This document shows, one piece after another, positions 3,211-42,401 of a DNA stretch of 61,632 nucleotides. Location of the stretch: positions 1 through 61,632 of IMG/VR virus record IMGVR_UViG_3300049783_001456; one strand, written 5' to 3'. The stretch is from a virus. Lineage: Duplodnaviria > Caudoviricetes. The notes under the pieces are model-generated. The model saw nothing but the letters and a program-made list of their open reading frames with translations, searched no databases and was not told the DNA's origin. Positions within the stretch are counted from its first letter, which is position 1, and each line of letters begins with the position of its first letter. Position numbers and translations under genes: made by a program.

Positions 3211-3225
3211 GATTGCTACCCTACC

Positions 3226-10775: not shown

Positions 10776-11120
10776 TCATAGCATCTCCTGAAGTTGTAGT
10801 CTGCCTTCGTCGTCTGGGAGGTAGACACCGAGGTCTTCATCCATGACGCTGTAGATCCAGCACTGGAGTTCGGGCTGAGCTAGGAGCTCGTCGAGCTCGC
10901 TCGGGATGGCGGGGTCGAAGCTGTGCGAATGCCACACGCCGGTGACCCTGCCAGTCTCCCACCAGAGGTCCGCAGACGCCTGAGGGATCAGGAAGCTATT
11001 CTGAGGGTCTTCCGCCACGTTGTTGCAGATGACGAACCCTCCGTAGTCCAGCAGGAATCCACAGGCCTCTGACGGGAACTGAGTGTTGGCTTCCTGGGCA
11101 ATAGCCTGCTTGATGTCCAT
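10776..11120 (-). CDS. JAB/MPN (Mov34) domain metalloprotease
   Basis: PSEACGFL...WHSH...PSELD matches the JAMM E-xn-HxH-x7-S-x2-D motif; GAGGGG RBS before ATG 11120. Confidence 0.85.
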   Translation of the reverse strand: MDIKQAIAQEANTQFPSEACGFLLDYGGFVICNNVAEDPQNSFLIPQASADLWWETGRVTGVWHSHSFDPAIPSELDELLAQPELQCWIYSVMDEDLGVYLPDDEGRLQLQEML

Positions 11121-11540
11121 CAGTTCCCCCTCGTTGATGCGGTGGCCTGGTTGTGGTGACCGATGCAGTGGCGTCGTTTCAACCCACCCCTGTCGTTTCG
11201 TTCCCACCAAGACTGTTCCGCTGAACTCGACCTGCAGAGTTTGCAGTGCTTGGGGGTGGGGATCATCGGTTGATCACGAAGACCCAGGCAGCGGCGCTCC
11301 AGAGGACGACATAGACGGCAGCGGCGAGCGACATTGCGAGGTCGCTGTCGGAAGGTTTGAGTTTCACAGTATCTCCACAGTGACTAGAGGTTCGTGGTGG
11401 CTGTTGAACCAGGCTTGGACTTGCTTATCCTTCTCCAGGAGGACGGAGCCACTGTGCCCTGGGCACGGTTCACCCTCAGACTCCAGCAGGACAATAGACT
11501 GGCAGCTACGACAGCCGAGGCACACGCTGTAGAGAGTCAC

Positions 11541-11720
11541 TCAAGACCTCTTGTGCGGGTGGGGTCGGGTGCCAACCCAACAGAGGACTACGTCCCACAG
11601 GACCCTGAGCTTGTTTCTCCCCACGCCGTGGCTGTTGCCGCAGCATGGGGAACTCTGTAGGACCCACCCGTGGGGGAGGCCTCCTGCGGCACCCCAGTCT
11701 TTCCAGTTCATCTTGTTCAT
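11541..11720 (-). CDS. Small hypothetical protein, probably leaderless
   Basis: GGGGTAG...GGGG-TAGGCT-N7-ATG; 59-aa ORF translated by hand. Confidence 0.45.
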   Translation of the reverse strand: MNKMNWKDWGAAGGLPHGWVLQSSPCCGNSHGVGRNKLRVLWDVVLCWVGTRPHPHKRS

Positions 11721-11764
11721 AGCCTACAGCCTACCCCACGCCAACTGAGAAACTACCCCAACCA

Positions 11765-12472
11765 TCAGATTAGGTCGATCTCTATGGCAGTGTTCTTGCG
11801 GAGCTCTGCGGATAGTGCAGCGTTCAACGCCTCACGCAAGTCCGGTGCCAAGCCTGCAGTTGCTACAGCGTTGTTGAGCGCTCTGAAGAAGACGTCGCTG
11901 GTGTCTTCAGCCAGTTGTATGCGACGCTCTTCGATGCCTGCCTCGAGCGCTGTCTTACAGGCTCGTTCGTAACGCTCGGTCCACACCCTCAGCAAGTTGA
12001 CGTAGATGCTCGGGACCATCTCCTCTTTGCTGTCGAGTCCCCAGAAGGCGTCGTTGGTTGTCACCTGCTTGGTTTGGATCATGTCGCCTGGACCTTCGAT
12101 GAGGACCTCGCTGACGGAAGGTTCTTCCTGCAGCTCGCCAACCTTGAAGCTGAGGACACGCATCATCGAACCAGAGATACGGACGACCTCGAGCAACCCA
12201 TCTATCGGGTGCTGATCGGGAAGATCGCATTCCCGCATGAGGTCGGCTATCTCCCCCTCGGCAGACATCATGGCGAGCTTATGAGATGCCGCCACCTTCG
12301 TCTTGGTCAACGCTCCGCCGTGGGAACGGCAAACCTCCGCACCGGCGATGGGTGCCTTTGTACAGGGCACCTGTCTGTCAGTCCCGGTGCGGTGTGCCTT
12401 GCAGGCAACGTTCCCGTGTCGGGTGACGTGGATCTTGCCGCAGTCATCACAGATCTTCTTTGCTCGGCTCAC
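11765..12472 (-). CDS. HGGxSTG-like Zn-binding protein, candidate terminase small subunit
   Basis: CKAH...PCTKAPIAGAEVCRSHGG followed by a helical region ending ERRIQLAE. Confidence 0.55.
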   Translation of the reverse strand: MSRAKKICDDCGKIHVTRHGNVACKAHRTGTDRQVPCTKAPIAGAEVCRSHGGALTKTKVAASHKLAMMSAEGEIADLMRECDLPDQHPIDGLLEVVRISGSMMRVLSFKVGELQEEPSVSEVLIEGPGDMIQTKQVTTNDAFWGLDSKEEMVPSIYVNLLRVWTERYERACKTALEAGIEERRIQLAEDTSDVFFRALNNAVATAGLAPDLREALNAALSAELRKNTAIEIDLI

Positions 12473-12474
12473 TT

Positions 12475-12609
12475 CTACTCGGCTTTCTTGAGGGGGATGG
12501 AACGTTCGGATTTCTTAGAGCACCGATGCATGACTTCCTTGACGCCGCTCGGTTGGGTGGTCATGAAACCACAGCCATTGGCGTGGCACTCCCAGAGTAC
12601 TTCGTTCAT
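12475..12609 (-). CDS. 44-aa Cys/His protein, paralogous to the C-terminus of 24236..24580
   Basis: MNEVLWECHANGCGFMTTQPSGVKEVMHRCSKKSERSIPLKKAE; GAGGAG RBS. Confidence 0.6.
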   Translation of the reverse strand: MNEVLWECHANGCGFMTTQPSGVKEVMHRCSKKSERSIPLKKAE

Positions 12610-27707: not shown

Positions 27708-29023
27708 AGCTGCGCGACTATCAGTTGCTGGCTCGGGACTTCCTCCGCAACCAGCCCCGAGGCGCTGGCTTGTTCCTCGATATGTCGCTGGGCAAGACCG
27801 CCATCTCGCTGTGCGCTCTCGAGCCTCGCCACCTGCCCGTCCTCGTGATCGCACCAAAGAGGGTCGCCGAGCGTGTATGGATTGCCGAGAGGGACAAGTG
27901 GAGGCCCGACCTGAGTATGGCTCTGGCTGTTGGCGACCCACCCAAACGGAAGGAAGCGGTCGCCGAGCAGGCCGACATCACGGTGAGCTCGAACCACCCT
28001 TCGTTCATTGCCGAACTGAAGCCGATCTACAAGACGGTCATCATCGACGAGAGCTCGGTGTTCCGGGAAAAGATGACCAAGCGTTGGAGAGCGGCACGCA
28101 AGCTGTGCGTCAAGGCCGACCACGTGTGGGCGTTGTCCGGCACGCCGGTACCGGCAGGGTTGCTCAACCTCTGGTCGCAGATGTTCCTCCTAGACGGTGG
28201 AGAGCGCCTCGGAACAACCTTGGGTGGCTACCGAGGCCGATACTTCTTCCCAGGAGCGACGCTTCCTTCTGGGGTGGTTACAGAGTGGATCCTCCGGGAA
28301 GAGTCGCAGGGGTCTATACACGCAAAGATCGAAGGCATCTGCCTCTACATGAGCGCTGCCGACGAGCTCGACCTTCCACCCACACACCACAACGTAGTTG
28401 ATGTGCCGCTGCCGGCAGCAGCCAAGAGCCAGTACAGGGAATTCAAGGATACGTTGGTGCTCGACCTGGAGTTGATCGGCGAAGAGATCTACAGCGCTGC
28501 CAATGCAGCCGTGTTGTCGGGGAAGCTCCGGCAAGTGACCTCAGGGTTCATTTACAGCGACGAGCAGGACGGAACGTACACACCGCTGCACACCGCCAAG
28601 CTAGACGCTCTCGAGGAGATCGTAGACGGCACTGGCGACAACCTGTTGGTGTTCTACAACTTCCGCCCTGAGATCGATATGATCCGGGAGCGGTTCCCAC
28701 AAGCCAAGATGATGGACGATAAGGGTGCACTCGACGCTTGGGACCGAGCCGAGCTCCCGATGATGTTGGCTCACCCTGCTTCCGTAGGTCACGGGCTCAA
28801 CCTTCAGTTCGGCGGGCACACTGCGGTGTGGTTCTCTCTAACCTGGGATCTTGAACTCTACCTGCAATCCAACGGCAGGCTCCCACGCCCAGGACAGAAG
28901 CATTCGGTCGTCATACATTCGATAGAGTGCCCAGGTACCGTCGACAAGATCGTCGCTCGAGCACTCGCCAACAAGGACTTCAACCAAACCAGTTTCCTCG
29001 ACCACGTAAGGAGCCCGATCTAG
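27704..29023 (+). CDS. SNF2-like SF2 helicase
   Basis: LRDYQ, LDMSLGKT, IIDESS, LSGTP, GHGLNLQ, QSNGRL. Confidence 0.9.
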   Translation: MKLRDYQLLARDFLRNQPRGAGLFLDMSLGKTAISLCALEPRHLPVLVIAPKRVAERVWIAERDKWRPDLSMALAVGDPPKRKEAVAEQADITVSSNHPSFIAELKPIYKTVIIDESSVFREKMTKRWRAARKLCVKADHVWALSGTPVPAGLLNLWSQMFLLDGGERLGTTLGGYRGRYFFPGATLPSGVVTEWILREESQGSIHAKIEGICLYMSAADELDLPPTHHNVVDVPLPAAAKSQYREFKDTLVLDLELIGEEIYSAANAAVLSGKLRQVTSGFIYSDEQDGTYTPLHTAKLDALEEIVDGTGDNLLVFYNFRPEIDMIRERFPQAKMMDDKGALDAWDRAELPMMLAHPASVGHGLNLQFGGHTAVWFSLTWDLELYLQSNGRLPRPGQKHSVVIHSIECPGTVDKIVARALANKDFNQTSFLDHVRSPI

Positions 29024-29025
29024 AT

Positions 29026-29475
29026 ATGCAGACTTTCCACACCCACGTAGACCCTCGAGCAGGGGCTGCTGCTCTCGACATGCGACGACTCAACAAGCAA
29101 ATCGTAGAGTGTGTACAGATAATTCGAACAGCAAGAGGCGAGACGGCAGGATACCGCAACCACCCAGCAGTAAAGATGTGGGTCGGTCACGAGCGTTCTT
29201 TGGCGGAGTACACACAGGCAATGATTGACGAGTGGTGGTCTCGAGGGTACGAGAGCCACACCGGTAGCGCACTCAAAGTCGCCGAGTACCTACAGGATCT
29301 CGAAGATACTGGTTGGCCTGCTTGGTGGGGGTACCCAACTATGGTCCAGAGCCACCAGTCCAACTTGGTTCGCAAAGAACCAGAACACTACGGTCCGCTC
29401 TTCCCAGGTGTACCTGACGATCTCCCGTATTTCTGGCCCACCAAGGAACCAAGTTTCGAGGTGTCAGGCAGATGA
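29026..29475 (+). CDS. Pyrimidine-dimer DNA glycosylase (DenV/MSMEG_6728-like)
   Basis: MQTF...LDMRRLNKQIVECVQI...YRNHPAVKMW...SHQSNLVRKEPEHY. Confidence 0.85.
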   Translation: MQTFHTHVDPRAGAAALDMRRLNKQIVECVQIIRTARGETAGYRNHPAVKMWVGHERSLAEYTQAMIDEWWSRGYESHTGSALKVAEYLQDLEDTGWPAWWGYPTMVQSHQSNLVRKEPEHYGPLFPGVPDDLPYFWPTKEPSFEVSGR

Positions 29476-29583: not shown

Positions 29584-30231
29584 ATGAAAGTGACTGAGCC
29601 AGGACCACCGAGGCGGATCTACGGGTTCACCCCGTGGGGGAGACCGATATTCGAGGACCCAACAGCAGAACCCAAGGAGCCCAGGATGATCGGACGACAC
29701 CCGTTCCAACCATCGCAGGAGTACCCGATGATATGTGGCGTCTGCAACAAAACGATGGCGCGGCACACCTACGACGAATCTCAGGAGCCGACTCGCCCGA
29801 CCGTAGATACGAGGCCTGACACCGGCACAGGTGACCCAATCCCCTGGATCCGCCACCGACCGACAGTCGATGAGTATTACCTCGGGATCGCCCGAGCAGT
29901 AGCAGCTCGAGCTGAGTGCAGTCGTAGGCAGGTTGGCGCTGTCATCGTCCGGGACCAGTCCATCATGTCTACAGGTTTCAACGGTGCGCCTCCAGGAGAG
30001 CCGAGCTGTCTAGACGGCGCATGCCCAAGGGCACTCAGCGGTGTAGCACCTGGCACTGGATACGCTTCTAGCGGCTGCGTGGCTGTGCACGCTGAAGCCA
30101 ACGCCATCATCCGTGCAGGACGCGAGAGGTGCCTTGGAGCGACGCTCTACGTCACCTCCGAGTGCTGCGACCTGTGCGCCCCGTTGGTGCGTGCTGCTGG
30201 GATAACTAGGGTGGTGACACCTTTGGGGTAG
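29584..30231 (+). CDS. dCMP deaminase with an N-terminal extension
   Basis: CSRRQVGAVI, GFNGAP, HAEANAI, CCDLC. Confidence 0.9.
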   Translation: MKVTEPGPPRRIYGFTPWGRPIFEDPTAEPKEPRMIGRHPFQPSQEYPMICGVCNKTMARHTYDESQEPTRPTVDTRPDTGTGDPIPWIRHRPTVDEYYLGIARAVAARAECSRRQVGAVIVRDQSIMSTGFNGAPPGEPSCLDGACPRALSGVAPGTGYASSGCVAVHAEANAIIRAGRERCLGATLYVTSECCDLCAPLVRAAGITRVVTPLG

Positions 30232-33106: not shown

Positions 33107-33355
33107 ATGATAGACACACGTGACGTGCTTGAAGCCATAGGGCAAGACCCCGAGCTGCACGCAGCTTACGAAAGCAATACCGAGTTTCGCAACCTGATGA
33201 CACACGTCACCCAGGCAACGAACGGTATCAAGGCGATTCAGATTCTGTGTCGCGGTTACTTGGAACTGGCTGATGAAGTACCAAATGTCTGCGGGGCACC
33301 GCTGTCGCTGGACCCCGCAGACAAGCCTGAACCGAACGACCCCCTACACCCCTAG
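33107..33355 (+). CDS. Hypothetical protein
   Basis: AAGGAG RBS before ATG 33107. Confidence 0.65.
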   Translation: MIDTRDVLEAIGQDPELHAAYESNTEFRNLMTHVTQATNGIKAIQILCRGYLELADEVPNVCGAPLSLDPADKPEPNDPLHP

Positions 33356-33357
33356 AG

Positions 33358-33450
33358 AAATACTTCCTGGTTGGGGTAGCTTTCCAGCAACCCACCCGCT
33401 ATCATGATGTACATAGCCAACGGGGCTATCACCTACCAAGGAGAACCGCA
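33358..33450 (+). promoter_or_regulatory. Composite promoter-hairpin-RBS element
   Basis: Near-consensus copy. Confidence 0.85.
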
Positions 33451-33831
33451 ATGACGAACACCTACCGCACACACGGAAGCCTCACCGGCGATGTTAACGA
33501 CTTCGAAACGGCGAGAGACTACCTCCGTGAAAGCGACATGACGCAGTACGTCAAGCATGCTTCCTTCAAGGGTCTCGAGGACATCGTCCACAACATCCAG
33601 TGGAACCTTCTGGGGGTAGACACCTGGGAAGTCATCGTCATTACCAACCGGGAGCTGACGGCAGAAGAATCCACCGGGGTCAGCGAGTGGATCTCCGGCC
33701 AGAACAGCGACGGCTTGGGTGAGGGGTTCGAGCAGCAAGAGTTCGCCGAGCACGAGGACCTCGACGGGGAATACTCGATGAGCTCGTTCGACTGGCACAC
33801 CAACAAAGCCATCTTGACCCTCGTCAAGTAA
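33451..33831 (+). CDS. Hypothetical protein with a WISGQNSDGLGEGFEQ motif
   Basis: Cassette inserted before PolA; ATG after the element. Confidence 0.7.
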   Translation: MTNTYRTHGSLTGDVNDFETARDYLRESDMTQYVKHASFKGLEDIVHNIQWNLLGVDTWEVIVITNRELTAEESTGVSEWISGQNSDGLGEGFEQQEFAEHEDLDGEYSMSSFDWHTNKAILTLVK

Positions 33832-33884: not shown

Positions 33885-35720
33885 GTGACAGACTTCCTCT
33901 ACATAGACATCGAGACCCGTTCCCGGGCGGACCTCAAGAGGCTGGGTGTGTACAAGTACACCGAGTGTCCCGACTTCTCCATCTTGATGGCTGCCTGGTC
34001 GGAGGATGGGGAGCCTGCGAAGATTGCTGTCGGCCACGACGAGATACTTGATATCCCTGGGCTGCTCGACCCACAGCAAACCAAGGTGGCTCACAACGCA
34101 CAGTTCGAGCGGCTGTGCTTGGGTGTACTCGTGGAGTCGCTCCAGGTTCCCGAGCAGTGGATAGACACGCAAGCACTTGCAGCAGAGTATGGGTTCCCTG
34201 TGAGCCTCAGCGCAGCCGCCAAGGCACTTGGGGTCACCGAGAAGGACGACGCTGGGGGCAAACTGATCCGGTTGTTCTGCATCCCTAAGAAGGATGGCAC
34301 CTGGAACGACTTCACCACCCACCCTATGGAGTGGCTCGACTTCATCGCATATTGCGAGCAGGATGTAGACACGATGGTGGAGGTACACCAGAAGCTGGGT
34401 GATTGGCCCAGTGAAGCAGAGCGCAAGGTGTGGAACGCTGACCAGCGTATCAACGACCGGGGGATGTCTATCGACCGGGAGCTGTGTATCGTCGCAGCGG
34501 AGACCGTCGAGGTCAACCGGATATCAGATAGCGCAGAGTTCCGCTTGTTGACTGACGTAGACAACCCACGCTCGGTTCAGCAGGTGAAGCGCTGGTCGGA
34601 GGAGGTCGGCCTGGACCTTCCGAACCTCAAAGCAGAGACCATCCAAGAAGCTATCGACGACCCCGATACCGACCCCGTCCACCGACGTGTGCTCGAGCTA
34701 CGGCAAGATCTTTCCCTGGCTGCTGGTGGTAAGTTCTCGGCAGCACTCGCCATCGTGTCGCCGGATGACCGCATACGTGGCGGGTTCCGCTTCTTCGGGG
34801 CTCATACAGGTCGCTGGTCAGGGCAACGAGTACAGCCGCAGAACCTCCCTCGAGCAAGCGTGGACAATACGGAGGCAGCCATCCTCGACCTCAAGATGGG
34901 TATGGGTGCTGACCCGTACACGCTCAAGGCTCTCGTTCGGGCGATGTTTGTCGGGCCGATTTCGGTCGTTGACTACGCATCCATCGAAGCTCGAGTGGTG
35001 TCTTGGATTGCTAACGAGGAGTGGGCGCTGGAAGCCTTCCGAGAGGGTCGTGATATCTACGTAGAGACGGCCAACCGTATGTCTACTCCCAGCAACCAGT
35101 TGACCCGTTTCCAAGGCAAGGTGGCCGTCCTAGCGCTTGGCTACAACGGAGGTGTTACTGCGCTCCGGGCGATGGGTGCAGAAGGAGACAACGATGACCT
35201 CCGGCGGCTGGTGAACGTGTGGCGCAAGGCCAACGCTCGGATCGTCAATCTGTGGTCGACGATGGAGGGTGCGATCGAGGACGGAGGCAAGGTCGGCCCA
35301 CACGTCAAGATCACCCGTCGTGGTTCCGACATGAAGATGCATTTGCCTTCCGGCAGGGCGATCCACTACCACGGAGTCAAGTGGGAGAAGTATGTTGTCG
35401 TGGACCCAGACACAGACAAGAAGCTACAGAAGCGAGGGTGGCGATACAGCGACCCCAAGCGTGGTGGGGCACGTATCGGCACCTACGGTGGACGCCTTGT
35501 GGAGAACGCCACTCAGGCTATAGCTCGGGACATCCTAGCGGAAGCGCTCGTGCGTCTGGACGAAGCTGGTTACCAAGTCACCGGCCACGTACACGACGAG
35601 GCCATCGTAGAGGGAACCGACCTCGAGGAGATCAACCGCATCATGACGCAGGTGCCCCGTTGGGGACGAGGCCTGCCTATCGACGGCGACGGATACGTCG
35701 CAGACAGGTACAAGAAATGA
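33885..35720 (+). CDS. polA: Family A DNA polymerase with a 3'-5' exonuclease domain
   Basis: DIETRS, AHNAQFE and YCEQDV exonuclease motifs; TGRWS; motif A DYASIEARV; motif B RFQGK..LGY; motif C HVHDE. Confidence 0.92.
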   Translation: MTDFLYIDIETRSRADLKRLGVYKYTECPDFSILMAAWSEDGEPAKIAVGHDEILDIPGLLDPQQTKVAHNAQFERLCLGVLVESLQVPEQWIDTQALAAEYGFPVSLSAAAKALGVTEKDDAGGKLIRLFCIPKKDGTWNDFTTHPMEWLDFIAYCEQDVDTMVEVHQKLGDWPSEAERKVWNADQRINDRGMSIDRELCIVAAETVEVNRISDSAEFRLLTDVDNPRSVQQVKRWSEEVGLDLPNLKAETIQEAIDDPDTDPVHRRVLELRQDLSLAAGGKFSAALAIVSPDDRIRGGFRFFGAHTGRWSGQRVQPQNLPRASVDNTEAAILDLKMGMGADPYTLKALVRAMFVGPISVVDYASIEARVVSWIANEEWALEAFREGRDIYVETANRMSTPSNQLTRFQGKVAVLALGYNGGVTALRAMGAEGDNDDLRRLVNVWRKANARIVNLWSTMEGAIEDGGKVGPHVKITRRGSDMKMHLPSGRAIHYHGVKWEKYVVVDPDTDKKLQKRGWRYSDPKRGGARIGTYGGRLVENATQAIARDILAEALVRLDEAGYQVTGHVHDEAIVEGTDLEEINRIMTQVPRWGRGLPIDGDGYVADRYKK

Positions 35721-35781
35721 TTATCGAGAAACATCCTGGTTGGGGTAGTTTTGCAGGATGTGGTGGGGTATACTCATAACT

Positions 35782-35976
35782 ATGAGCTTCCCCACACGCA
35801 CCTACTCCACTAACGGCCACACGGTCGAAATCACCAAGACCGCTTGTGAAGCAGTACCGAGCCAGGCCAGCTACAAGGTCAAGGTCGACGGCCAATTCGC
35901 CGGTCAGCCTGGAACCTTGAAGCGTGCCAAGGAATTCGCAGCCCTGAAGATCCGCATGATCGAAGCAGCCGCATGA
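35782..35976 (+). CDS. Hypothetical protein, leaderless
   Basis: ACATCCTG..GGGGTAG..CAGGATGT, then TATACT-N7-ATG. Confidence 0.65.
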   Translation: MSFPTRTYSTNGHTVEITKTACEAVPSQASYKVKVDGQFAGQPGTLKRAKEFAALKIRMIEAAA

Positions 35977-36161: not shown

Positions 36162-36471
36162 CCAACTCAAGATCCGAAACTCAACGAAGAAGAACGGGAG
36201 CGTTCTATCGGAGGTCAAGTTTCCGCAGGGGTTGCCGTTCGAACATAGGAACCTGGGTAGGGTCTCCGTGAGCCGGGTTCGTATCTGGTCTCGTCCAGAT
36301 GGGAGGATGCACCTGGGTTCTATGAACATCGGAAACGGCAACGAACAGAAGTGGGTCGAGACTTCTCTGTTCGAATTCGACCCTCGGCAACTCATTGACG
36401 TCCTGGCCCCCCACGTACTCGAATCTGTAACTAAGTACAAGCCAGGTCATTTCGAAGGGAACGACGCATGA
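36148..36471 (+). CDS. Hypothetical protein
   Basis: Coupled to the downstream modification locus; start uncertain. Confidence 0.5.
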   Translation: MPVRSQLKIRNSTKKNGSVLSEVKFPQGLPFEHRNLGRVSVSRVRIWSRPDGRMHLGSMNIGNGNEQKWVETSLFEFDPRQLIDVLAPHVLESVTKYKPGHFEGNDA

Positions 36472-37508
36472 CTGATTGGCGACTCCCAGAGAACAAAGAG
36501 CACGCCTTCTTGGCTTTCTACTGGTTCCATCTCGAGCACCGCAGCCACCCAGGAATGGTGTACTCCTTCTTGCCGGCAATCGCCGACGCCTTCGACCTCG
36601 ACGACGACCAGCGTGCCTGGCTCGTGTGGCTGAACGGCAACACTCAGAACGCAGTGACTTCGCTGATGTTGCTCGAGGTTGCCCCGACGCCCAACGACTG
36701 GAAGAAGGCAGTCGACTTCTGGAACGAGAACTTCAAGAAGCTTGAGTGGGACACTGACCGTCGCCACCAGAAGTCCAAGTTCGGCGAGGCCACCGAGGCC
36801 TGGTTCATGGACTTCGGATACCGACCATCAACCGACTGGCTCAAAGCTGGCGCTCGAGGCTGGAGCCATACGTGGAAGCACGCCTTCAGCCAGCCGTACA
36901 TGGGCAGGCTCTCTAGCTGGTCGATGATCGAGTACGCACGTATCCTCCTGGGGCAAGATATCCCCGACTCCGACACGTGGATGCTCGAGGACAAGAGCGG
37001 TTCCAAGTCGCACCGGAATGGCATCGCCGTCGTCAAGGGATATGACGCCACTTACTGGGATGCCGACACCCCCGACTTGCTCGGCATAGTCGGCGAGCTC
37101 GAGGACTATGCAGACCACCTACTGGCTCGCGTCGACCACCCGGACGCCGGACGCCTCACCATGGAGTCGGCACTGTGTACGTTCAAGTCCTGGCACAAGC
37201 CGAACCGACGGTATCCGAACGTGTACGCCGACATGATGTACACCCGTATCAAGAAGGCAGAGGCTCGGTTCGACCGTACCTTCGACCTCCTCTGGGAGAC
37301 CCGAAAGTACGACCTCCCCGAGTACCTTCGACTCGAAGACCAGTCGACCGACCCAGGCGTTGCCGGGGTCAAACAGAACTGGTTCCTCGAGACTGGTGAG
37401 GTTCACTACCTCCACCACGTATCCGATCTCTTCGAGCCATCTGGCTTGGAGCTACAAATCATTGCTGGCGACAAGCTGGCCCCACGAAAGGACCAAACAT
37501 GGAGCTGA
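36468..37508 (+). CDS. Amino acid:DNA transferase (AADT, aGPT-Pplase2 family)
   Basis: WDTDRRHQK, MGRLSSWSMIEY, SKSHRNG, MESALCTFKSWHKPNRRYPNVYADM; clustered with 5hmU genes. Confidence 0.78.
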   Translation: MTDWRLPENKEHAFLAFYWFHLEHRSHPGMVYSFLPAIADAFDLDDDQRAWLVWLNGNTQNAVTSLMLLEVAPTPNDWKKAVDFWNENFKKLEWDTDRRHQKSKFGEATEAWFMDFGYRPSTDWLKAGARGWSHTWKHAFSQPYMGRLSSWSMIEYARILLGQDIPDSDTWMLEDKSGSKSHRNGIAVVKGYDATYWDADTPDLLGIVGELEDYADHLLARVDHPDAGRLTMESALCTFKSWHKPNRRYPNVYADMMYTRIKKAEARFDRTFDLLWETRKYDLPEYLRLEDQSTDPGVAGVKQNWFLETGEVHYLHHVSDLFEPSGLELQIIAGDKLAPRKDQTWS

Positions 37509-38221
37509 CCATCTGCGAGAAGTGGACCCTCTACTGCCCGGAACCAACCGAGGAAGGGCAGTGGTTCCTAGACTACGTGCTGCGTTCACCCAGAGATGCA
37601 GGCATTCACCTCACAGCAGGGTTGAACGCATACCAAGCGCTGTCCGAATTGGGTGTCAAACCTGATACAGCAATGGAGTACTTCGGCGGTATGGGTGCCC
37701 AGTCCGGGATGATCCAACACTTCTTCTCAGTACGTTCGCACCTGGTCCTCGACAACAGCGAGGAGGCAGTCAGGCACATCGAGTCGAACATGGAAGGGTA
37801 CGACGTCGTCGCTAGTTGCGAAGACAGCTACGACCCCGCCAGCTACCGGCCTGCCGACATCGTCGGGTTGGACTTCGGCGACCTCACCGTTTGGAAGACA
37901 CGGGAAGGAGAGAAGCATCGTGAGCTCCTCGACCGTGTCTTCGCCGGCAAGCCGAAAGGTGTTGTTCTGACAGACGTCGCCTGCCGGTATCTGCACCTGC
38001 ATCGGGAACGCTACGAAACGCTCCTCGGGGCTGGCACTTGTGCCGACTATCCAACGTATCTCGAGGCGCTCGCCGACCGGCTCGAGGAGATCTACGGATA
38101 CGTCATGGTGGCTGGGTTCCACCACCGTTGGTCTACCGTCATGGCGCTACGACCTGAAGGCGTGCGAGGCGAGTTCATCCCGACGCCGGAGTCGCCTGTC
38201 GGACTTGTGGTCACTCGATGA
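37499..38221 (+). CDS. Class I SAM-dependent transferase-like protein (putative methyltransferase)
   Basis: Motif I AMEYFGGMG, acidic end of beta2 (LVLDNS), EDSY, ADIVGLDF at beta4. Confidence 0.55.
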   Translation: MELTICEKWTLYCPEPTEEGQWFLDYVLRSPRDAGIHLTAGLNAYQALSELGVKPDTAMEYFGGMGAQSGMIQHFFSVRSHLVLDNSEEAVRHIESNMEGYDVVASCEDSYDPASYRPADIVGLDFGDLTVWKTREGEKHRELLDRVFAGKPKGVVLTDVACRYLHLHRERYETLLGAGTCADYPTYLEALADRLEEIYGYVMVAGFHHRWSTVMALRPEGVRGEFIPTPESPVGLVVTR

Positions 38222-39096
38222 AGACAAAGATCCACACAGAGCTCACGCCGGTAGAGTCCCGTGGTGGGCGTCTATGGAAACGTGAAGATGCACATCGCAA
38301 CGACTATGGGGTGAACGGTAGCAAGTACCGGGCATGTCGCCACCTACTGACCCAGGCCATCTTGGATGGGTACACACACGTCGTCACTGCCCAAGCCACA
38401 GCCAGCCCGCAGTCTTCGATCTGTGCTACGTTGTGTGAGGAGCTGGGTCTGGAATGCACTGTCGTTGTCGGAGCCAGTAAACCACACACCGCAATCAAGC
38501 ATCCGAACATCGCTATCGCTATGGCAGCAGGAGCCAACCTCGACACCGGTTGCCGAGTGGCCTACAACGGGACTCTTCAACCCTACGCTTCGAGGCTCGC
38601 TGAGGAGCTCGGAGCATATCAGCTGCCCTACGCCATCACCTACCCAACGAGCGGGACGAGAGAGGGACTCGAGGCCTTCCTCGCAGTAGGTGGAGCGCAG
38701 GTGGTGAACCTACCCGACAGCGTCGAACGTCTCGTCATCCCGTTCGGCTCAGCAAACACAGCTTGCGGGGTGCTCTACGGGTTGAACGAGAAACGACCAG
38801 CCAACCTCAAAGACATCTACTTGATGGAGATCGGACCGAGCCGAAGAGATTGGGCGATGGAGCGACTAGAGATAGTGGGTAAGGAGTTCGAGTTGACCAG
38901 CGTCAACACTCACTTCATCACGCTCCACGAGGTGTGGGCCAGCTACAGCGACCAGATGCCGGAGACGATGGAAGATATCGTGTTCCACCCATGGTACGAA
39001 GGGAAGATGATTCGGTGGCTCAATCTCGTTCAGCCTGATTGGTGGAACCTCCAAGACGAGACCACCTGCTTCTGGATCGTAGGTGGTCCATCGTGA
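38218..39096 (+). CDS. Fold-type II PLP-dependent enzyme
   Basis: LTPVE...WKREDA...NGSKYR PLP lysine; LVIPFGSANT; FHPWYEGK. Confidence 0.82.
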   Translation: MKTKIHTELTPVESRGGRLWKREDAHRNDYGVNGSKYRACRHLLTQAILDGYTHVVTAQATASPQSSICATLCEELGLECTVVVGASKPHTAIKHPNIAIAMAAGANLDTGCRVAYNGTLQPYASRLAEELGAYQLPYAITYPTSGTREGLEAFLAVGGAQVVNLPDSVERLVIPFGSANTACGVLYGLNEKRPANLKDIYLMEIGPSRRDWAMERLEIVGKEFELTSVNTHFITLHEVWASYSDQMPETMEDIVFHPWYEGKMIRWLNLVQPDWWNLQDETTCFWIVGGPS

Positions 39097-39272
39097 TCGA
39101 GTTCGAAGCCCAGTTCAAGAGCGACTGTGGCAACTGCGAGTTCCCGGTAGAGAAAGGTCAAGCTGCAACCTTTGAGGACAACGAAGCTGTACACATCAAG
39201 TGCCCCAAGGTTCGCCCAGCGTGCCCTGATTGCTGGCTGGTGCACGGCACGGCTCAGGAGTTCTGCGAATGA
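39093..39272 (+). CDS. Small Cys-rich zinc-binding protein
   Basis: CGNC...HIKC...CPDC...H; GTGA and ATGA overlaps on both sides. Confidence 0.55.
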   Translation: MIEFEAQFKSDCGNCEFPVEKGQAATFEDNEAVHIKCPKVRPACPDCWLVHGTAQEFCE

Positions 39273-40162
39273 GGACTGATGACTTCCTCGACTTCGTCGT
39301 CGAGCGCCACCGCATCTGGGAACAGAGGCAGGCAGGCACTGCCCAACCTTGGACCGAAGACCCTGTGCTCGCCAACCGCAAGTTCACCAACGTCTTCCGG
39401 GTGCTCGATCCAGGCACTCAGTTCCTCTTGAAGGACCTCTTTGAGCCCGACCTCAACCCTCGGGACACCTTGATGCGAGCGTTCCTCTACCGGCATACAG
39501 GCAAGGTAGAGACGTGGGAGCTGCTGGACCTCATGGTCGGCGAATATCCGACAGTCCCGATGCTCGAAGACGTCCGTAAGATCTGGCATGGGTACCGGGA
39601 CACGAAGGCACCGTTCTTCACGAATGCGTACCTCGTCTATCCGCAATCTTCCACACCCGGTACAGACAAGCTCGACTCGATCGTCGACTTGACAAAGCGG
39701 CTGTTCACTCCTGGTTCGCCAGACGACATCATGCCGGAATGGCTCTCTGCTCAGACCCAGAAGGAGCGGTTCAAGATCCTTCGCCGCAACAAGGGCGTCG
39801 GCGACTTCATGTCAATGCAGATACTGACTGACTGGGGCTACCAATGTGGCGAAGATCGGGAAGACGAATTCCTCGTGCCTGGCCCTGGCTCTATCAAGGG
39901 AGCGAAGGCTCTCGACCCCGACGCCAAGACCATGGAAGTGGTGCGGCGTGTCGTGAAAGAAGTTCGTGGGGTAGCTTCTTCACCTCGGTTGGGGTACCGT
40001 TCACCAAGTCTCATGGACATCGGCTCTAATCTCCTCTGCGAGTGGAGCAAGTACGTGAGGTTCAGAGGGCAATCGTTGCCCAAGACCAACTACATCCCGG
40101 CTCACCCAGGTCCGCAACCGGACCCAGTGCTGCCGAGCTATTACACAGAGGAACTGATATGA
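39269..40162 (+). CDS. 5-hmdU DNA kinase helical domain (aGPT-Pplase1 family)
   Basis: FLDFVVERHRIW...PWTEDPVLANRKFTNVFRVLD; GVGDFMSMQILTD; GPGSIKG; LCEWSKY. Confidence 0.82.
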   Translation: MRTDDFLDFVVERHRIWEQRQAGTAQPWTEDPVLANRKFTNVFRVLDPGTQFLLKDLFEPDLNPRDTLMRAFLYRHTGKVETWELLDLMVGEYPTVPMLEDVRKIWHGYRDTKAPFFTNAYLVYPQSSTPGTDKLDSIVDLTKRLFTPGSPDDIMPEWLSAQTQKERFKILRRNKGVGDFMSMQILTDWGYQCGEDREDEFLVPGPGSIKGAKALDPDAKTMEVVRRVVKEVRGVASSPRLGYRSPSLMDIGSNLLCEWSKYVRFRGQSLPKTNYIPAHPGPQPDPVLPSYYTEELI

Positions 40163-40410
40163 ACAAAGCGCAAGAGCTGGACCTGCTTATGGTAGACCCA
40201 CCGCCAGGGTCGCACCTCAAGATGAAATTGGTGTACCCAGGCAGCCCGAAGTCCTATGTCTACGTGGCCATCTCTCTAGGCACTCTTTGGTACCTCAGCG
40301 GTATCAGCGGGTCATTCCCGTCTTGGGCTTCCCTGGTTAACTGGATGCAAAACAAGAACGCCGAAGTAATTTCAATCCAAACCGCAACGTCCTGGGAGGA
40401 CCTACTGTAA
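40159..40410 (+). CDS. Hypothetical protein
   Basis: GAGGA RBS; ATGA overlap. Confidence 0.55.
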   Translation: MNKAQELDLLMVDPPPGSHLKMKLVYPGSPKSYVYVAISLGTLWYLSGISGSFPSWASLVNWMQNKNAEVISIQTATSWEDLL

Positions 40411-41822
40411 TGAACCACAACTACCAATTCAACAACGTCAACGACGCATTGCCTCGACTTATGGAGGCTCTGCTGGGAGACGGTGCGGAGTTCCCTTCTC
40501 GTGCCGGCAACACCAAAGAGTTGATGCACGTCGGTATCACCCTCCGGAAGCCTTGGCAGCGGGAGATCGCACTGCCTGGTCGCAAAGCCAACATCGCTGC
40601 GCAGATCATGGAGACCATGTGGGTGTTGTCGGGTCGCAACGACGTCGCAGGTCTCAGCCATTACCTGCCTCGAGCCATCGACTTCAGTGACGATGGCTTG
40701 GAGTGGCGGGCAGGCTACGGTCCTCGCCTGCGAAACTTCCACGGTGTTGACCAGCTTGCCTACCTCGTTGACACGATCGCTGACTCGCCTGGTTCACGGC
40801 AAGCGGTAGCGTCCATTTGGGACCCGACCGTCGACACTGAGCCCGGCAAAGACATCGCCTGCAACAACTGGATCTCGCTCAGTGCCAGGGACGGCAAGCT
40901 GGACGTTCACGTAGGTCTCCGCTCAAACGACGCCATGTGGGGTTGGAGCGGTATCAACGCTTTCGAATGGTCGGTACTACAGGAAGTAGTGGCACACATC
41001 GCAGGCCTGGAAATCGGATCACTCCACTTCTCCACAACCAGCTTCCACTTGTATGAGCAACACTGGGATAAGGCAAGTTCCCTCTCCAAGCTCAACGGCA
41101 ACTTCATGTACGGTGACTCCCCAAGGTTCAACCTGAGTGGGTACAACGTGCTGAGCCGTTTCGACGAGCTTGCCCAGGAGTGGTTCGCACTCGAAGAAGA
41201 CATCCGCTTCGGCCGGGAGATCGGCAACGCTGTCAACGACTTCCCCGAGCCGATGTTGCGGTCGTGGTTGCGGGTTCTTCAGTGGTACTGGTCAGGCGAG
41301 AGCATCTACCTGCAGCCTCTCCGACGATCAAACCTTTACCACGCTTGCCTGGAAGGTGTCAAGCCTGCCGGCAAGCACCAGGAAGAGCAGCTCGAGATCG
41401 TAGAACCCTACGACCGCATCGACGGTGAGTTCCTCGACTTCGTCAACCGACTGCACACCCAGAAGCACCTGGCATACGGTGACAGCTGGAAGCGTCGAGG
41501 CGAGTATATGATCCTCGCTAACATCGCCCGCAAGGTCGACCGCATCGAGAGCGGCAAGGACACTCCGGACGAGACCCAGGCCGACACCGCACAAGACCTG
41601 ATGGTCTACCTCGCCAAATACAAGTCTTGGCTCAGCGGTGGAGAAGGCAACCCAGACGAGGTCCGCCTCATCCTCCGGGGACAAGAGAGCCTCTACTTCT
41701 CTACGGTAGATATCGTGAGCTTGTTCGATAACCTAGAGAACGCTCACGGACCAGCCTTCAAGATGAGCGTGGTGGACAAACTACTGAGCCAAGCCTACAC
41801 CTTCGCCCTGTCGTTGTGGTGA
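40410..41822 (+). CDS. Thymidylate synthase-family enzyme (probable dUMP hydroxymethylase) fused to a nucleotide-modification-associated helical domain
   Basis: YGPRLR, SRQAV, catalytic DIACNN, RSNDAMWG..INA with Asn (uracil specificity), SFHLY; C-terminal KHLAYGDSWK...ARKVDRI...DTAQDLMVY. Confidence 0.82.
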   Translation: MNHNYQFNNVNDALPRLMEALLGDGAEFPSRAGNTKELMHVGITLRKPWQREIALPGRKANIAAQIMETMWVLSGRNDVAGLSHYLPRAIDFSDDGLEWRAGYGPRLRNFHGVDQLAYLVDTIADSPGSRQAVASIWDPTVDTEPGKDIACNNWISLSARDGKLDVHVGLRSNDAMWGWSGINAFEWSVLQEVVAHIAGLEIGSLHFSTTSFHLYEQHWDKASSLSKLNGNFMYGDSPRFNLSGYNVLSRFDELAQEWFALEEDIRFGREIGNAVNDFPEPMLRSWLRVLQWYWSGESIYLQPLRRSNLYHACLEGVKPAGKHQEEQLEIVEPYDRIDGEFLDFVNRLHTQKHLAYGDSWKRRGEYMILANIARKVDRIESGKDTPDETQADTAQDLMVYLAKYKSWLSGGEGNPDEVRLILRGQESLYFSTVDIVSLFDNLENAHGPAFKMSVVDKLLSQAYTFALSLW

Positions 41823-42331
41823 CCCGCTCCATCTACATCATCGGTGCGCCAGGCTCCGGCAAGTCGACGGCCATGGCCCAACTCCTCGAGGGTTGGGCCA
41901 TGGGTCCGTACACTCGTTGGCAGCGGGAGATCTATGGACACTATCTCGAGCACCCCGAGAGAGGACGAGGAGCGTACCTCGGTCACCTTCGCCCCGAGTT
42001 CCCCGGAACGGACGCTCTCTCCCTCTCAGCAGGTCCTCGAGCGGTTGAATGGCTCGACGCTCTCCCACTCCTTGGGCTTGATTGGGTTCTGGCCGAAGGT
42101 GCTCGCCTCGCTCACATGGGTTTCCTACTTGCTCTCAACGAAGCCACAGACCTGACAGTCGTGTATTTGGATGTGGACCCAGAGGTTGCTGCCCAGAGGC
42201 GAATCGACCGGGGTGGGAAACAGCTTTCTGAAAAGTTCTGCAAGACGATGACCACTAAGTCGGCCAACATCTACAAGGGTTGCAAGGAAGCAGGCATAAC
42301 TATCGTGAAGGATGTTCCTGCCTTGAGGTAG
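41816..42331 (+). CDS. P-loop nucleotide kinase (5hmU kinase-associated)
   Basis: IYIIGAPGSGKST, FPGTDALS, EGARL, RRIDRG. Confidence 0.8.
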   Translation: MVTRSIYIIGAPGSGKSTAMAQLLEGWAMGPYTRWQREIYGHYLEHPERGRGAYLGHLRPEFPGTDALSLSAGPRAVEWLDALPLLGLDWVLAEGARLAHMGFLLALNEATDLTVVYLDVDPEVAAQRRIDRGGKQLSEKFCKTMTTKSANIYKGCKEAGITIVKDVPALR

Positions 42332-42401
42332 CTTTCCAGGAACAGTTGGGGTAGTATGATTGTCACTGGCCACAAGGGCTAGCATCTACCAAGGAGCAAC
42401 C
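42314..42401 (+). promoter_or_regulatory. Divergent copy of the composite element
   Basis: GTTCCTG..GAGGTAGCTTTC..CAGGAAC, TAGTAT, N7, ACTGGCC-ACAAG-GGCTAG, AAGGAG. Confidence 0.7.

What the first reader, a model, noticed from the sequence alone, without database searches (positions are those of the whole stretch)
36468..42331. Thymidine hypermodification locus with a SAM-dependent transferase-like gene: candidate new DNA base
Seen: a translationally coupled run of AADT, Rossmann SAM-transferase-like (EYFGGMG), fold-II PLP enzyme, Zn finger, 5hmU kinase helical domain, small ORF, TS-family enzyme with the uracil-specifying Asn, and a P-loop kinase. Known: in phages ViI, M6 and PaMx11, 5hmdU is phosphorylated on DNA, substituted with Ser or Gly by AADT, then tailored by a PLP decarboxylase, a radical SAM isomerase, or a flavin enzyme plus acetyltransferase. 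Inference: here the tailoring partner is a class I SAM enzyme and no radical SAM CxxxCxxC motif is seen. This predicts an N-methylated or aminoalkylated derivative, e.g. a methylated aminoethoxymethyl-dU, which I do not recognise as characterised.
Basis: partly seen in the sequence, partly recalled or inferred. Interest (0 to 1): 0.88.

Follow-up and report, generated by a model that had tools for sequence, protein, structure and literature searches.

The report
Methyltransferase-equipped phage thymine hypermodification operon
An uncultured phage carries the full gene set for rebuilding the thymines of its DNA, plus an unnamed virus-only methyltransferase-type enzyme that almost always travels with these pathways, so it probably makes a methylated DNA base nobody has measured.

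Summary
Window 36468-42331 (+) is one run of overlapping genes: AADT, a 240-aa protein (here X240), a fold-II PLP enzyme, a small Zn-ribbon-like ORF, HMUDK_hel, an 83-aa ORF, a TS-family enzyme and a P-loop kinase. No radical SAM gene is in the complete 61.6-kb virus record.

X240 matches no Pfam, PHROG or NCBIfam model. Its AlphaFold model (pLDDT 94.9) is a class I SAM-methyltransferase fold (best Z 15, all top rows SAM enzymes), and the SAM motifs are conserved across 63 diverse relatives.

The family is virus-only in my searches: 392 clusters, and none in the species genomes scanned. It stays with AADT: 21 of 23 IMG/VR loci have AADT in the same record, and the 2 misses are fragments. It occurs in ViI-like, M6-like and ParB/TET-type clusters, often beside the PLP decarboxylase gene. 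One cultured phage, Pseudanabaena phage Pam3, has a member.

Best reading (about 0.5): a ViI-type pathway leaves a primary amine on thymine and X240 N-methylates it. The chemistry is untested. I found no paper describing a methyltransferase as a tailoring step after AADT. Earlier notes of this scan flagged look-alike genes on other DNA. It is a new variant of a known kind; interest about 0.62.

The parts
35715..35800 (+). Upstream copy of a repeated promoter-like boundary element (inverted repeat around GGGGTAG, then a TA..AT box). It is the likely start of the transcription unit.
   Evidence: Alignment with the copies at about 42314 and 33358. Function is inferred; the lead came from scan note e1-6285780.
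36468..37508 (+). Amino acid:DNA transferase (AADT, clade 2 aGPT-Pplase), with Glu233 and Cys237
   Evidence: PF18724 at 1.9e-11, above the cut-off. phrog_3271 at 1.5e-57. 59.9% identity to the Glutamicibacter phage Montesquieu AADT. E233 and C237 are invariant in 7 of 7 aligned AADTs, including M6 gp51 (E243/C247) and a Kuttervirus AADT.
37499..38221 (+). X240: unnamed virus-only family with a class I SAM-methyltransferase fold; the proposed tailoring methyltransferase
   Evidence: No Pfam, PHROG or NCBIfam hit. 238 homologues. AF2 pLDDT 94.9. Top PDB neighbours are all SAM enzymes, Z up to 15.3. Motif conservation.
38218..39096 (+). Fold-type II PLP enzyme, homologue of the ViI-type side-chain decarboxylase; Lys36 in the NGSK motif
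   Evidence: PALP at 9e-7, below the cut-off. phrog_3650 at 7.1e-67. About 30% identity and E about 1e-34 to Kuttervirus PLP genes. E 1e-6 to M6 gp52.
39093..39272 (+). Small Cys-rich (CxxC...CxxC) Zn-ribbon-like protein of unknown role. The start is GTG 39093 or TTG 39039.
   Evidence: ORF, junction, phrog_1581 at 5.8e-6. Conserved in L043 and L045.
39269..40162 (+). HMUDK_hel domain protein (helical domain associated with the 5-hmdU DNA kinase). The likely start is ATG 39269; the ORF is open from 39230.
   Evidence: PF18723 at 8.6e-45; junction read.
40159..40410 (+). 83-aa ORF of unknown function, syntenic in relatives
   Evidence: tblastn matches in L043-L046.
40410..41822 (+). TS-family enzyme, a probable dUMP hydroxymethylase, with a conserved all-alpha C-terminal domain (about residues 337-470)
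   Evidence: PF00303 at 2.2e-20. The best PDB match is the CMP 5-hydroxymethylase MilA at 1.8e-25, against about 1e-13 for thymidylate synthases, with Asn at MilA's Asp position. AF2 model.
41816..42331 (+). P-loop kinase of the 5-hmdU DNA kinase type
   Evidence: PF18751 Ploopntkinase3 at 5.3e-18. Lee 2021 Table 1 lists the characterised 5-hmdU DNA kinases as P-loop kinases.
29584..30231 (+). dCMP deaminase; a probable dUMP supply for the hydroxymethylase (accessory, outside the flagged span)
   Evidence: PF00383 at 6.2e-21.

Best explanation
The locus is a complete ViI-type thymidine hypermodification operon of an uncultured phage whose nearest cultured relatives infect Actinomycetota.

Proposed path:
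1. The TS-family enzyme makes 5-hydroxymethyl-dUMP. dUMP is fed by the phage dCMP deaminase.
2. 5-hmdU enters the DNA.
3. The P-loop kinase phosphorylates 5-hmdU in the DNA.
4. The AADT (Glu233/Cys237) replaces the phosphate with an amino acid. The link leaves the alpha-amine free; serine O-linkage, as in ViI, is the model.
5. The fold-II PLP enzyme (Lys36) decarboxylates it, leaving a primary amine on a short side chain (5-NeOmdU-like).
6. The 240-aa protein uses S-adenosylmethionine to methylate that amine once or more, giving an N-methylated hypermodified thymidine.

Shown here by computation: the family assignments, the catalytic residues, the methyltransferase fold and SAM motifs, and the genomic linkage. 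Inferred: the donor amino acid, the order of steps, SAM use, and nitrogen as the acceptor atom.
For: Pathway type:
- AADT, PLP enzyme, kinase, HMUDK_hel and TS domains are all present.
- The AADT catalytic Glu and Cys are invariant in 7 of 7 aligned AADTs.
- AADT and PLP are both nearer to the Ackermannviridae (ViI-type) pair than to M6. The AADT finds them by tblastn but gives only E 0.061 against M6 gp51. The PLP enzyme gives E about 1e-34 to 1e-35 against them and 1e-6 against M6 gp52.
- No radical SAM gene is present. Lee 2021 explains that without the isomerase the PLP enzyme needs a side-chain-linked amino acid with a free amine.

X240 is a real, conserved gene:
- 238 homologues at E <= 0.01; the 120 listed carry no Pfam domain.
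- 392 clusters at E <= 1e-3.

Fold:
- AF2 pLDDT 94.9, pTM 0.92.
- Foldseek against PDB gives at least 500 hits at E <= 0.001, and the top rows are all SAM enzymes.
- VIA-align wide: PrmA Z 15.2 (rmsd 3.0, 168 aligned), Trm1 Z 15.1, Trm5, TrmM, RsmD and HemK2. All 50 rows are class I SAM-fold proteins. The second look agrees.

SAM motifs across 63 diverse members:
- G64 and G66 in 63 of 63.
- E60: 59 E and 3 D.
- F62: 57 of 63.
- An acidic residue at the end of strand 2 in 63 of 63.
- D109: 50 of 63.
- D125 and D159: 62 of 63 each.
- Y187: 63 of 63.
- No conserved Cys.

Linkage:
- AADT lies in the same record for 21 of 23 IMG/VR loci. The two misses are 56% and 30% complete fragments.
- PF18724 rings in 0 of 14 control genomes.
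- X240 sits directly between AADT and PLP in 6 IMG/VR loci and in 4 metagenome loci.
- Remote members (23-28% identity) lie beside the PLP gene inside M6-like clusters in both complete records (coordinates).
- The cultured cyanophage Pam3 has a member (hhalign 92.7%, E 4.3e-7) in an M6-like cluster.

Every complete record therefore pairs the family with enzymes that end in a primary amine.
Against: - No biochemical datum exists for any member.
- The structural neighbours are tied within about 1 Z. They include RNA m5C methyltransferases (Tt1595, RlmO) and SAM enzymes with other chemistry: Tyw2 (Z 13.1), AzeJ (13.4-13.9) and CmoA. The fold therefore does not identify the acceptor atom or even prove methyl transfer.
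- Motif IV is D-F-G-D, not the (D/N/S)PP(Y/F/W) of known amino-methyltransferases, and only its first Asp is family-wide.
- In the L022-type cluster (ParB, TET/JBP, kinase, AADT, X240-like) no PLP enzyme was found on a 58%-complete contig. A decarboxylated amine is therefore not proven to be the universal substrate.
- The AADT donor is unknown. At the position of the glycine-type Lys248 the window has Thr, while the Kuttervirus enzyme has Trp.
- The closest cultured relative, Montesquieu, has AADT-PLP without X240, so X240 is dispensable for the core pathway.
Confidence: 0.5

Rival explanations
1. X240 is a SAM-dependent tailoring enzyme of the hypermodified thymine but does something other than N-methylation. 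Options are transfer of the aminocarboxypropyl or aminopropyl part of SAM onto the side-chain amine, O-methylation of the amino-acid carboxylate, or methylation of a ring atom.
For: - The linkage evidence is the same as for the best explanation.
- Non-methyl SAM enzymes with this fold score nearly as high as methyltransferases: Tyw2 Z 13.1-13.6, AzeJ 13.4-13.9, CmoA 13.1-13.3.
- One remote member gives a weak TRM5/TYW2 Pfam hit (E 0.0012).
- The close subfamily has a D-x-x-D after strand 4. From memory this resembles aminopropyltransferases; it was not tested.
Against: - Carboxyl methylation fits poorly with constant pairing with a decarboxylase in complete records.
- Motif I has no extra Asp of the kind I recall in decarboxy-SAM users. 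The second Asp of D-x-x-D is present in only 20 of 63 members.
- Methyl transfer is the usual chemistry of this fold.
Confidence: 0.2
2. X240 is an ordinary methyltransferase unrelated to thymine hypermodification. It could be an anti-restriction DNA adenine/cytosine methyltransferase, or an RNA or protein methyltransferase, that merely sits in the replication module.
For: - Its motif I (E-x-F-G-G-x-G) resembles the DNA-methyltransferase consensus (recalled).
- The neighbours include RNA and protein methyltransferases.
- In about six IMG/VR loci X240 lies 5-6 kb from the other modification genes.
Against: - No (D/N/S)PP(Y/F/W) motif and no conserved Cys for C5 chemistry.
- AADT is in the same record in 21 of 23 loci, across three unrelated cluster architectures and down to 23% identity.
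- No member was found in the genome-contig scan of bacterial and archaeal species genomes.
Confidence: 0.15
3. X240 is a non-catalytic or regulatory SAM-binding subunit that assists AADT or the PLP enzyme, for example by holding DNA or a flipped base.
For: - Near-obligate co-occurrence with AADT.
- Translational coupling to both neighbours.
Against: - The full set of SAM-binding motifs, plus invariant Asp125, Asp159 and Tyr187 near the expected methyl site, is kept over 63 diverse members. This is typical of active enzymes.
- Close relatives of the AADT work without it: Montesquieu and ViI and M6 in vitro (Lee 2021).
Confidence: 0.1

Closest known systems
Salmonella phage ViI pathway to 5-NeOmdU: P-loop 5-hmdU DNA kinases gp67/gp243, serine:DNA transferase gp247, PLP decarboxylase gp226 (Lee 2021, PMC8989533)
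   Same: Kinase, AADT and a fold-II PLP enzyme with no radical SAM isomerase. The window's AADT and PLP proteins find the Ackermannviridae homologues directly by tblastn: about 26% identity for the AADT and about 30% (E about 1e-34) for the PLP enzyme. The catalytic Glu/Cys is conserved.
   Different: An extra methyltransferase-fold gene sits between AADT and PLP. Sequence identity is low. The donor amino acid is unproven. The genes here form one coupled operon, whereas in the Kuttervirus record examined (Marshall) AADT and PLP are about 10 kb apart.
Pseudomonas phage M6 pathway to 5-NedU (gp51 AADT, gp52 PLP, gp53 radical SAM, gp54 kinase)
   Same: The same enzyme families and the same clustered layout. 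Remote X240 relatives sit inside M6-like clusters.
   Different: The window has no radical SAM enzyme. Its AADT shows no significant BLASTP match to gp51 (E 0.061). M6 itself has no X240 in the fetched region.
Glutamicibacter phage Montesquieu (OV696619.1), the closest cultured relative
   Same: AADT 59.9%, PLP 38.7% and DNA polymerase 50.2% identical. It also has HMUDK_hel and a TS/hydroxymethylase.
   Different: AADT is followed directly by the PLP gene, with no X240 homologue. It has two P-loop kinase-like genes instead.
tRNA MnmC (FAD domain, then SAM methyltransferase domain: cmnm5U to nm5U to mnm5U)
   Same: A functional analogy: a class I SAM methyltransferase N-methylates an amine hung on C5 of uracil. 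Lee 2021 already relates PaMx11 gp47 to the MnmC FAD domain. The MnmC methylation step itself is recalled.
   Different: The substrate is RNA. No sequence similarity was detected. MnmC is not among the 50 rows shown, so homology is neither shown nor excluded.
Amino-group methyltransferases PrmA, Trm1, TrmM, RsmD/RsmC and HemK2/N6AMT1
   Same: Best structural neighbours, Z 13.7-15.2 over about 160-210 residues. The glycine-rich motif I and the acidic residues after strands 2, 3 and 4 are shared.
   Different: 8-14% identity and no Pfam membership. Motif IV is D-F-G-D rather than (D/N)PP(Y/F). There is a family-specific N-terminal hairpin with helices, and a helical insert after strand 5.
Pseudanabaena phage Pam3 gene 39 (ON014755.1)
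   Same: The only cultured-phage member found. hhalign 92.7%, E 4.3e-7 over 148 columns with motifs I and IV aligned. It lies near the PLP, radical SAM and aGPT-Pplase2 genes.
   Different: About 22% identity, 208 aa, an M6-type cluster and a cyanobacterial host. Its DNA chemistry is not mentioned in the one Pam3 genome paper that I searched.

Membership tests
Class I (Rossmann-like) SAM-dependent methyltransferase fold | Seven-stranded beta sheet flanked by helices, matching solved SAM methyltransferases | tested here: met
   AF2 pLDDT 94.9. Foldseek top E 9e-9. VIA-align Z 15.2-15.3, and all 50 rows are SAM-fold enzymes.
Class I (Rossmann-like) SAM-dependent methyltransferase fold | Glycine-rich motif I after strand 1, plus acidic residues ending strands 2 and 3 (SAM ribose and adenine contacts) | tested here: met
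   E60-x-F62-G-G64-x-G66, with G64 and G66 in 63 of 63. Position 85 is D or E in 63 of 63. D109 in 50 of 63.
Class I (Rossmann-like) SAM-dependent methyltransferase fold | Match to a curated methyltransferase sequence family | tested here: not met
   No Pfam hit even at E 10. No PHROG hit. No NCBIfam hit. No PDB sequence hit at E 10.
Class I (Rossmann-like) SAM-dependent methyltransferase fold | Binds SAM and transfers methyl | not testable with these tools
   Needs protein biochemistry.
DNA/RNA amino-methyltransferases (N6-A, N4-C, m2G type) | Motif IV (D/N/S)-P-P-(Y/F/W) after strand 4 | tested here: not met
   D125-F-G-D128 in the close subfamily. In 63 members only D125 is kept (62 of 63). 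Position 127 is G 20, N 19, P 16.
C5-pyrimidine methyltransferases | Conserved catalytic cysteine | tested here: not met
   C162 and C181 are not conserved in the 63-member alignment.
Kinase/AADT thymidine hypermodification pathway, ViI subtype | AADT with the essential Glu and Cys | tested here: met
   PF18724 above the cut-off. E233 and C237 align with M6 gp51 E243/C247. These residues are essential per Lee 2021 and the PaMx11 structure paper.
Kinase/AADT thymidine hypermodification pathway, ViI subtype | P-loop 5-hmdU DNA kinase | tested here: met
   Ploopntkinase3 at 5.3e-18, above the cut-off. The activity itself is not testable here.
Kinase/AADT thymidine hypermodification pathway, ViI subtype | Fold-II PLP decarboxylase homologous to ViI gp226, with a Schiff-base lysine | tested here: met
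   About 30% identity and E about 1e-34 to Kuttervirus PLP genes. Lys36 lies in the NGSK motif (sequence). The Pfam PALP score is below the cut-off. Decarboxylase activity is inferred.
Kinase/AADT thymidine hypermodification pathway, ViI subtype | No radical SAM isomerase | tested here: met
   PF04055 gives 0 hits in the complete record; controls give 14 of 14.
Kinase/AADT thymidine hypermodification pathway, ViI subtype | Source of 5-hmdU: a dUMP hydroxymethylase of the TS family | tested here: inconclusive
   TS family at 2.2e-20. It is nearer to the hydroxymethylase MilA (1.8e-25) than to thymidylate synthases (about 1e-13), and it has the uracil-type Asn. Hydroxymethylase versus synthase cannot be settled by sequence.
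Kinase/AADT thymidine hypermodification pathway, ViI subtype | Serine as donor and 5-NeOmdU as product in virion DNA | not testable with these tools
   The donor-pocket comparison was uninformative. No virion DNA is available.

The most novel reading that the evidence does not exclude
The X240 family is a dedicated methyltransferase for DNA side-chain amines, shared by ViI-like, M6-like and ParB/TET-type clusters. Phages would then make a whole series of N-methylated hypermodified thymidines. In the boldest form it methylates exhaustively to a choline-like trimethylammonium, a permanent positive charge in the major groove. Alternatively it transfers the aminocarboxypropyl part of SAM. Either would be a DNA base chemistry never measured.
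Probability: 0.15. Interest if true: 0.8.

Novelty: new variant of a known kind. Interest (0 to 1): 0.62.

Why it matters
The published tailoring steps for amino-acid-derived thymine hypermodification are radical SAM isomerases, PLP decarboxylases, flavin lyases and acetyltransferases (Lee 2021; repeated in the 2026 dapT paper). A SAM methyltransferase would add a fifth enzyme class.

It would also predict new natural DNA bases, N-methylated 5-NeOmdU-like or 5-NedU-like. These would have altered charge, bulk and hydrogen bonding, and therefore altered resistance to restriction enzymes, glycosylases and other DNA-targeting defences.

The family has no name in Pfam, PHROGs or NCBIfam. It comprises hundreds of clusters and was virus-only in my searches, so one assay would annotate many phage genes. 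One cultured host-phage pair (Pam3) makes the question directly testable. Enzymes that methylate an amine on DNA in situ could also be useful for DNA labelling.

Tried and rejected
- **Neighbourhood look-ups.** I studied neighbourhoods with the search for related loci and the genome search instead.
- **Sequence families for X240.** No Pfam, PHROG, NCBIfam or PDB-sequence hit. Remote members gave only weak hits: TRM5/TYW2 at 0.0012 and RrnaAD at 0.15.
- **Apparent fusion.** The 443-aa protein P0171 has no Pfam domain and a low-complexity tail. It looks like a read-through and is not informative.
- **A false negative that I corrected.** Searching the five remote records with the window's PLP protein gave 0 of 5. 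The Pfam PALP model then found 3 of 5, including 2 of 2 complete records, all below Pfam's cut-off. Radical SAM was found in 2 of 5, 2 of 2 complete. I dropped an interim idea that remote members work without a PLP enzyme, except for the L022 type, where the question stays open.
- **Donor specificity.** I compared the two pocket positions reported for YuA and 15599 Pplase2. The window has Thr238 and Tyr249 where M6 has Lys248 and Tyr257. This is inconclusive. I assumed, but did not verify, that YuA numbering equals M6 numbering.
- **Cellular genomes.** The genome-contig scan found no relatives.
- **Cultured phages.** tblastn with the window X240 and with three remote members found only Pam3.
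- **AADT-X240 binding.** The complex-prediction job gave 'no answer' (score 0.00). I draw nothing from it.
- **C-terminal domain of the TS-like protein.** No Pfam hit. The only lead is an ESM Atlas resemblance to Nmad1/DUF1599 (0.90).
- **Literature.** One search was too broad to be useful. Iyer et al. 2013 (NAR 41:7635) is not held, so I could not check whether its gene-neighbourhood figures show this methyltransferase. Figure 2 and the supplementary figures of Lee 2021 may depict such genes, and I could not see them.
- **Published co-occurrence.** The 2026 T-dioxygenase paper lists O-methyltransferases and N6/N4 methyltransferases among domains that co-occur with 5mYOX genes. It does not describe this family or a step after AADT.

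Full report
**What is there.** The window is a complete 61,632-bp virus record. On the + strand, 36468-42331 holds eight ORFs whose starts overlap the preceding stops by 1 to 10 nt.

- AADT: PF18724, 1.9e-11.
- A 240-aa ORF, here called X240.
- A PALP-type PLP enzyme: 9e-7, below Pfam's cut-off, but phrog_3650 at 7.1e-67.
- A 59-77-aa Cys-rich ORF.
- HMUDK_hel: 8.6e-45.
- An 83-aa ORF.
- A 470-aa TS-family protein: 2.2e-20.
- A Ploopntkinase3 kinase: 5.3e-18.

A repeated promoter-like element brackets the block at about 35730 and 42314. No internal promoter or convincing terminator stands out: 1 promoter-like site against 1.5 expected, and 4 terminator-like sites against 6.1 expected. Elsewhere the phage encodes a dCMP deaminase. 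No radical SAM gene exists in the record, while the controls ring 14 of 14.

**Relatives of the phage.** The nearest cultured relatives are Glutamicibacter phage Montesquieu and Brevibacterium phage LuckyBarnes. Montesquieu is 59.9% identical in AADT and 50.2% in DNA polymerase. Megablast finds no near-identical phage.

**Which pathway type.**
- The AADT keeps the Glu and Cys that Lee 2021 showed to be essential in M6 gp51 and ViI gp247. E233 and C237 are invariant in an alignment with M6 gp51 (E243/C247), a Kuttervirus AADT, Montesquieu, a mycobacteriophage and two metagenomic AADTs.
- Among characterised systems, both the AADT and the PLP enzyme are nearer to the Ackermannviridae (ViI-type) pair than to M6. 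tblastn with the AADT finds 376 phage records, dominated by ViI-like phages of Salmonella, Klebsiella and Escherichia at about 26% identity. BLASTP against M6 gp51 is not significant (0.061).
- The PLP enzyme matches Kuttervirus PLP genes at about 30% identity, E about 1e-34. It matches M6 gp52 at 1e-6. It has Lys36 in an NGSK motif; Lee 2021 names K36 of M6 gp52 as the likely Schiff-base lysine.
- Lee 2021 reasons that without the radical SAM isomerase, the PLP decarboxylase needs an adduct whose alpha-amine is free, as with O-linked serine in ViI. The core pathway here should therefore end in a primary amine on a short side chain.
- The donor is not established. At a pocket position that reads Lys in glycine-type enzymes, the window has Thr and the Kuttervirus enzyme has Trp.
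- The TS-family enzyme is closer to the CMP hydroxymethylase MilA (1.8e-25) than to thymidylate synthases (about 1e-13). It has Asn where MilA has Asp.

**The 240-aa protein.**
- It is a real, conserved gene. There are 238 homologues at E <= 0.01; the 120 listed all lack Pfam domains and carry only 'hypothetical protein' names. A full profile search of 1.84 billion representatives gives 392 clusters at E <= 1e-3 and 58 at E <= 1e-30.
- It matches no Pfam model even at E 10, no PHROG, no NCBIfam model and no PDB sequence.
- The AlphaFold model built from 34 sequences is confident: pLDDT 94.9, pTM 0.92.
- Foldseek against the PDB returns at least 500 hits at E <= 0.001, and the top rows are all SAM enzymes.
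- An exhaustive VIA-align search puts these first: PrmA (Z 15.2, rmsd 3.0, 168 aligned), Trm1 (15.1), Tt1595 (14.8), Trm5 (14.5), TrmM and RsmD (14.1) and HemK2 (13.9). All 50 rows shown are class I SAM-fold proteins, and the second look agrees.
- BFVD's two best viral matches (TM 0.77 and 0.74) are uncultured-phage proteins labelled only 'AdoMet_MTases domain containing'. ESM Atlas places the protein in virus-only unnamed clusters.
- The SAM-binding signature survives in 63 members down to about 19% identity. G64 and G66 are 63 of 63. E60 is 59 E plus 3 D. F62 is 57. The end of strand 2 is acidic in 63 of 63. D109 is 50.
- Also near-universal are H81 (62), D125 after strand 4 (62), D159 after strand 5 (62) and Y187 (63).
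- There is no conserved Cys and no (D/N/S)PP(Y/F/W) motif. The protein is therefore neither a C5-pyrimidine methyltransferase nor a standard amino-methyltransferase.
- Two carboxylates next to the expected methyl site would suit an ammonium substrate. This is inference.

**Linkage.**
- Of 23 IMG/VR loci encoding a relative, 21 have an AADT in the same record. The two without are fragments, 56% and 30% complete.
- The Pfam AADT model rings in 0 of 14 control genomes.
- In 6 loci the order is AADT-X240-PLP-kinase. In 2 it is polymerase-X240-HMUDK_hel-TS-AADT-PLP-kinase.
- Four metagenome contigs repeat the window's exact order.
- Where X240 lies 5-6 kb away, the PLP homologue is still in the record in 5 of 5 cases.
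- Members at 23-28% identity sit in other architectures. In both complete records (102 kb and 77.5 kb) the order is AADT, radical SAM, X240-like, PLP, which is M6-like. In a third record the order is AADT, PLP, X240-like (coordinates).
- In L022 the member lies between a primase-helicase and AADT, next to a kinase, a TET/JBP dioxygenase and ParB.
- The cultured cyanophage Pam3 has a member (hhalign 92.7%, E 4.3e-7) near PLP, radical SAM and aGPT-Pplase2 genes.
- No member was found in the scan of bacterial and archaeal species genomes.
- Montesquieu has AADT directly followed by PLP, without X240. X240 is therefore an add-on, not a core component.

**Mechanism and rivals.** The simplest reading is that X240 N-methylates the amine left by AADT and the PLP decarboxylase (about 0.5). 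A recalled RNA precedent is MnmC, where a SAM domain methylates 5-aminomethyl-U. Lee 2021 already links PaMx11 gp47 to MnmC's FAD domain.

The fold does not fix the chemistry. Tyw2, AzeJ and CmoA score within 2 Z of the best methyltransferases, so other SAM-dependent transfer stays open (0.2). An unrelated methyltransferase (0.15) is disfavoured by the linkage and the missing motifs. A non-catalytic partner (0.1) is disfavoured by the conserved active-site-like residues.

**Novelty.** I searched for 'methyltransferase' in three papers.
- Lee 2021: 4 occurrences, none a tailoring enzyme (I read sections 17 and 21 and passages of 16, 18-20 and 23).
- Lee 2018: 0 occurrences (passages only).
- The 2026 dapT paper: 0 occurrences; its list of tailoring enzymes has no methyltransferase (and section 38).

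Five library searches found no paper on a methyltransferase step after AADT. Iyer 2013, figures and supplements could not be seen.

Earlier AI notes of this scan flagged look-alike genes on other DNA. One of them led me to recheck PLP and radical SAM in the remote records.

**Caveats.** Everything about chemistry is inference. Related contigs are not independent samples, although the three architectures and the 23-70% identity range argue for repeated association. Several PALP and radical SAM matches in remote records are below Pfam cut-offs.

Noticed in passing
window 41418-41822 (residues about 337-470 of the TS-like protein): The TS-family enzyme carries a conserved all-alpha C-terminal domain after a low-confidence linker, with many invariant residues in 9 homologues. 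It has no Pfam hit. ESM Atlas features resemble 'Nucleotide modification associated domain 1' / DUF1599 at 0.90. This is a lead only.
   Followed up: partly
L042 (Pseudanabaena phage Pam3, ON014755.1) 5959-12564: This cultured cyanophage has an M6-like set (PLP Pam3_43, radical-SAM-like Pam3_46, aGPT-Pplase2 Pam3_47) plus the X240-family gene Pam3_39, which is annotated as hypothetical. The Pam3 genome paper that I searched does not mention DNA modification.
   Followed up: partly
L022 7806-11746: A third context for the family: primase-helicase, X240-like, AADT, then on the other strand a P-loop kinase, a TET/JBP dioxygenase and ParB. This is the ParB-dependent T-dioxygenase type of cluster, with no PLP enzyme seen on a 58%-complete contig.
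   Followed up: partly
L038 11686-12249 (M6 gp54); L002 2875-3465 (Zemanar gp4); phrog_800: P-loop 5-hmdU DNA kinase homologues are annotated 'terminase small subunit' in RefSeq records and in PHROGs. Lee 2021 shows that M6 gp54 is the DNA kinase, so this is probably a propagated misannotation.
   Followed up: no
L002 (Mycobacterium phage Zemanar and about 27 related records) 1-3465: Coopervirus mycobacteriophages encode an AADT 44-45% identical to the window's. It sits beside a ParB-like gene, a 'queuine tRNA-ribosyltransferase' and the kinase-like gp4. This suggests thymine hypermodification in a well-studied phage cluster.
   Followed up: no
window 28927-29475: A pyrimidine-dimer DNA glycosylase (Pyr_excise, 8.6e-22) in a phage that probably replaces thymine. 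How it deals with modified T is unclear.
   Followed up: no
window 35715-35800, 42300-42385, 33345-33460: A repeated element with an inverted repeat around GGGGTAG followed by a TA..AT box brackets the hypermodification block. It is the same element as in scan note e1-6285780.
   Followed up: partly
L001 (Montesquieu) 8909-10982: The closest cultured relative lacks X240. After its PLP gene it has two P-loop kinase-like genes (annotated ABC transporter and thymidylate kinase) and a 295-aa hypothetical protein. Its final base may differ from the window's.
   Followed up: no
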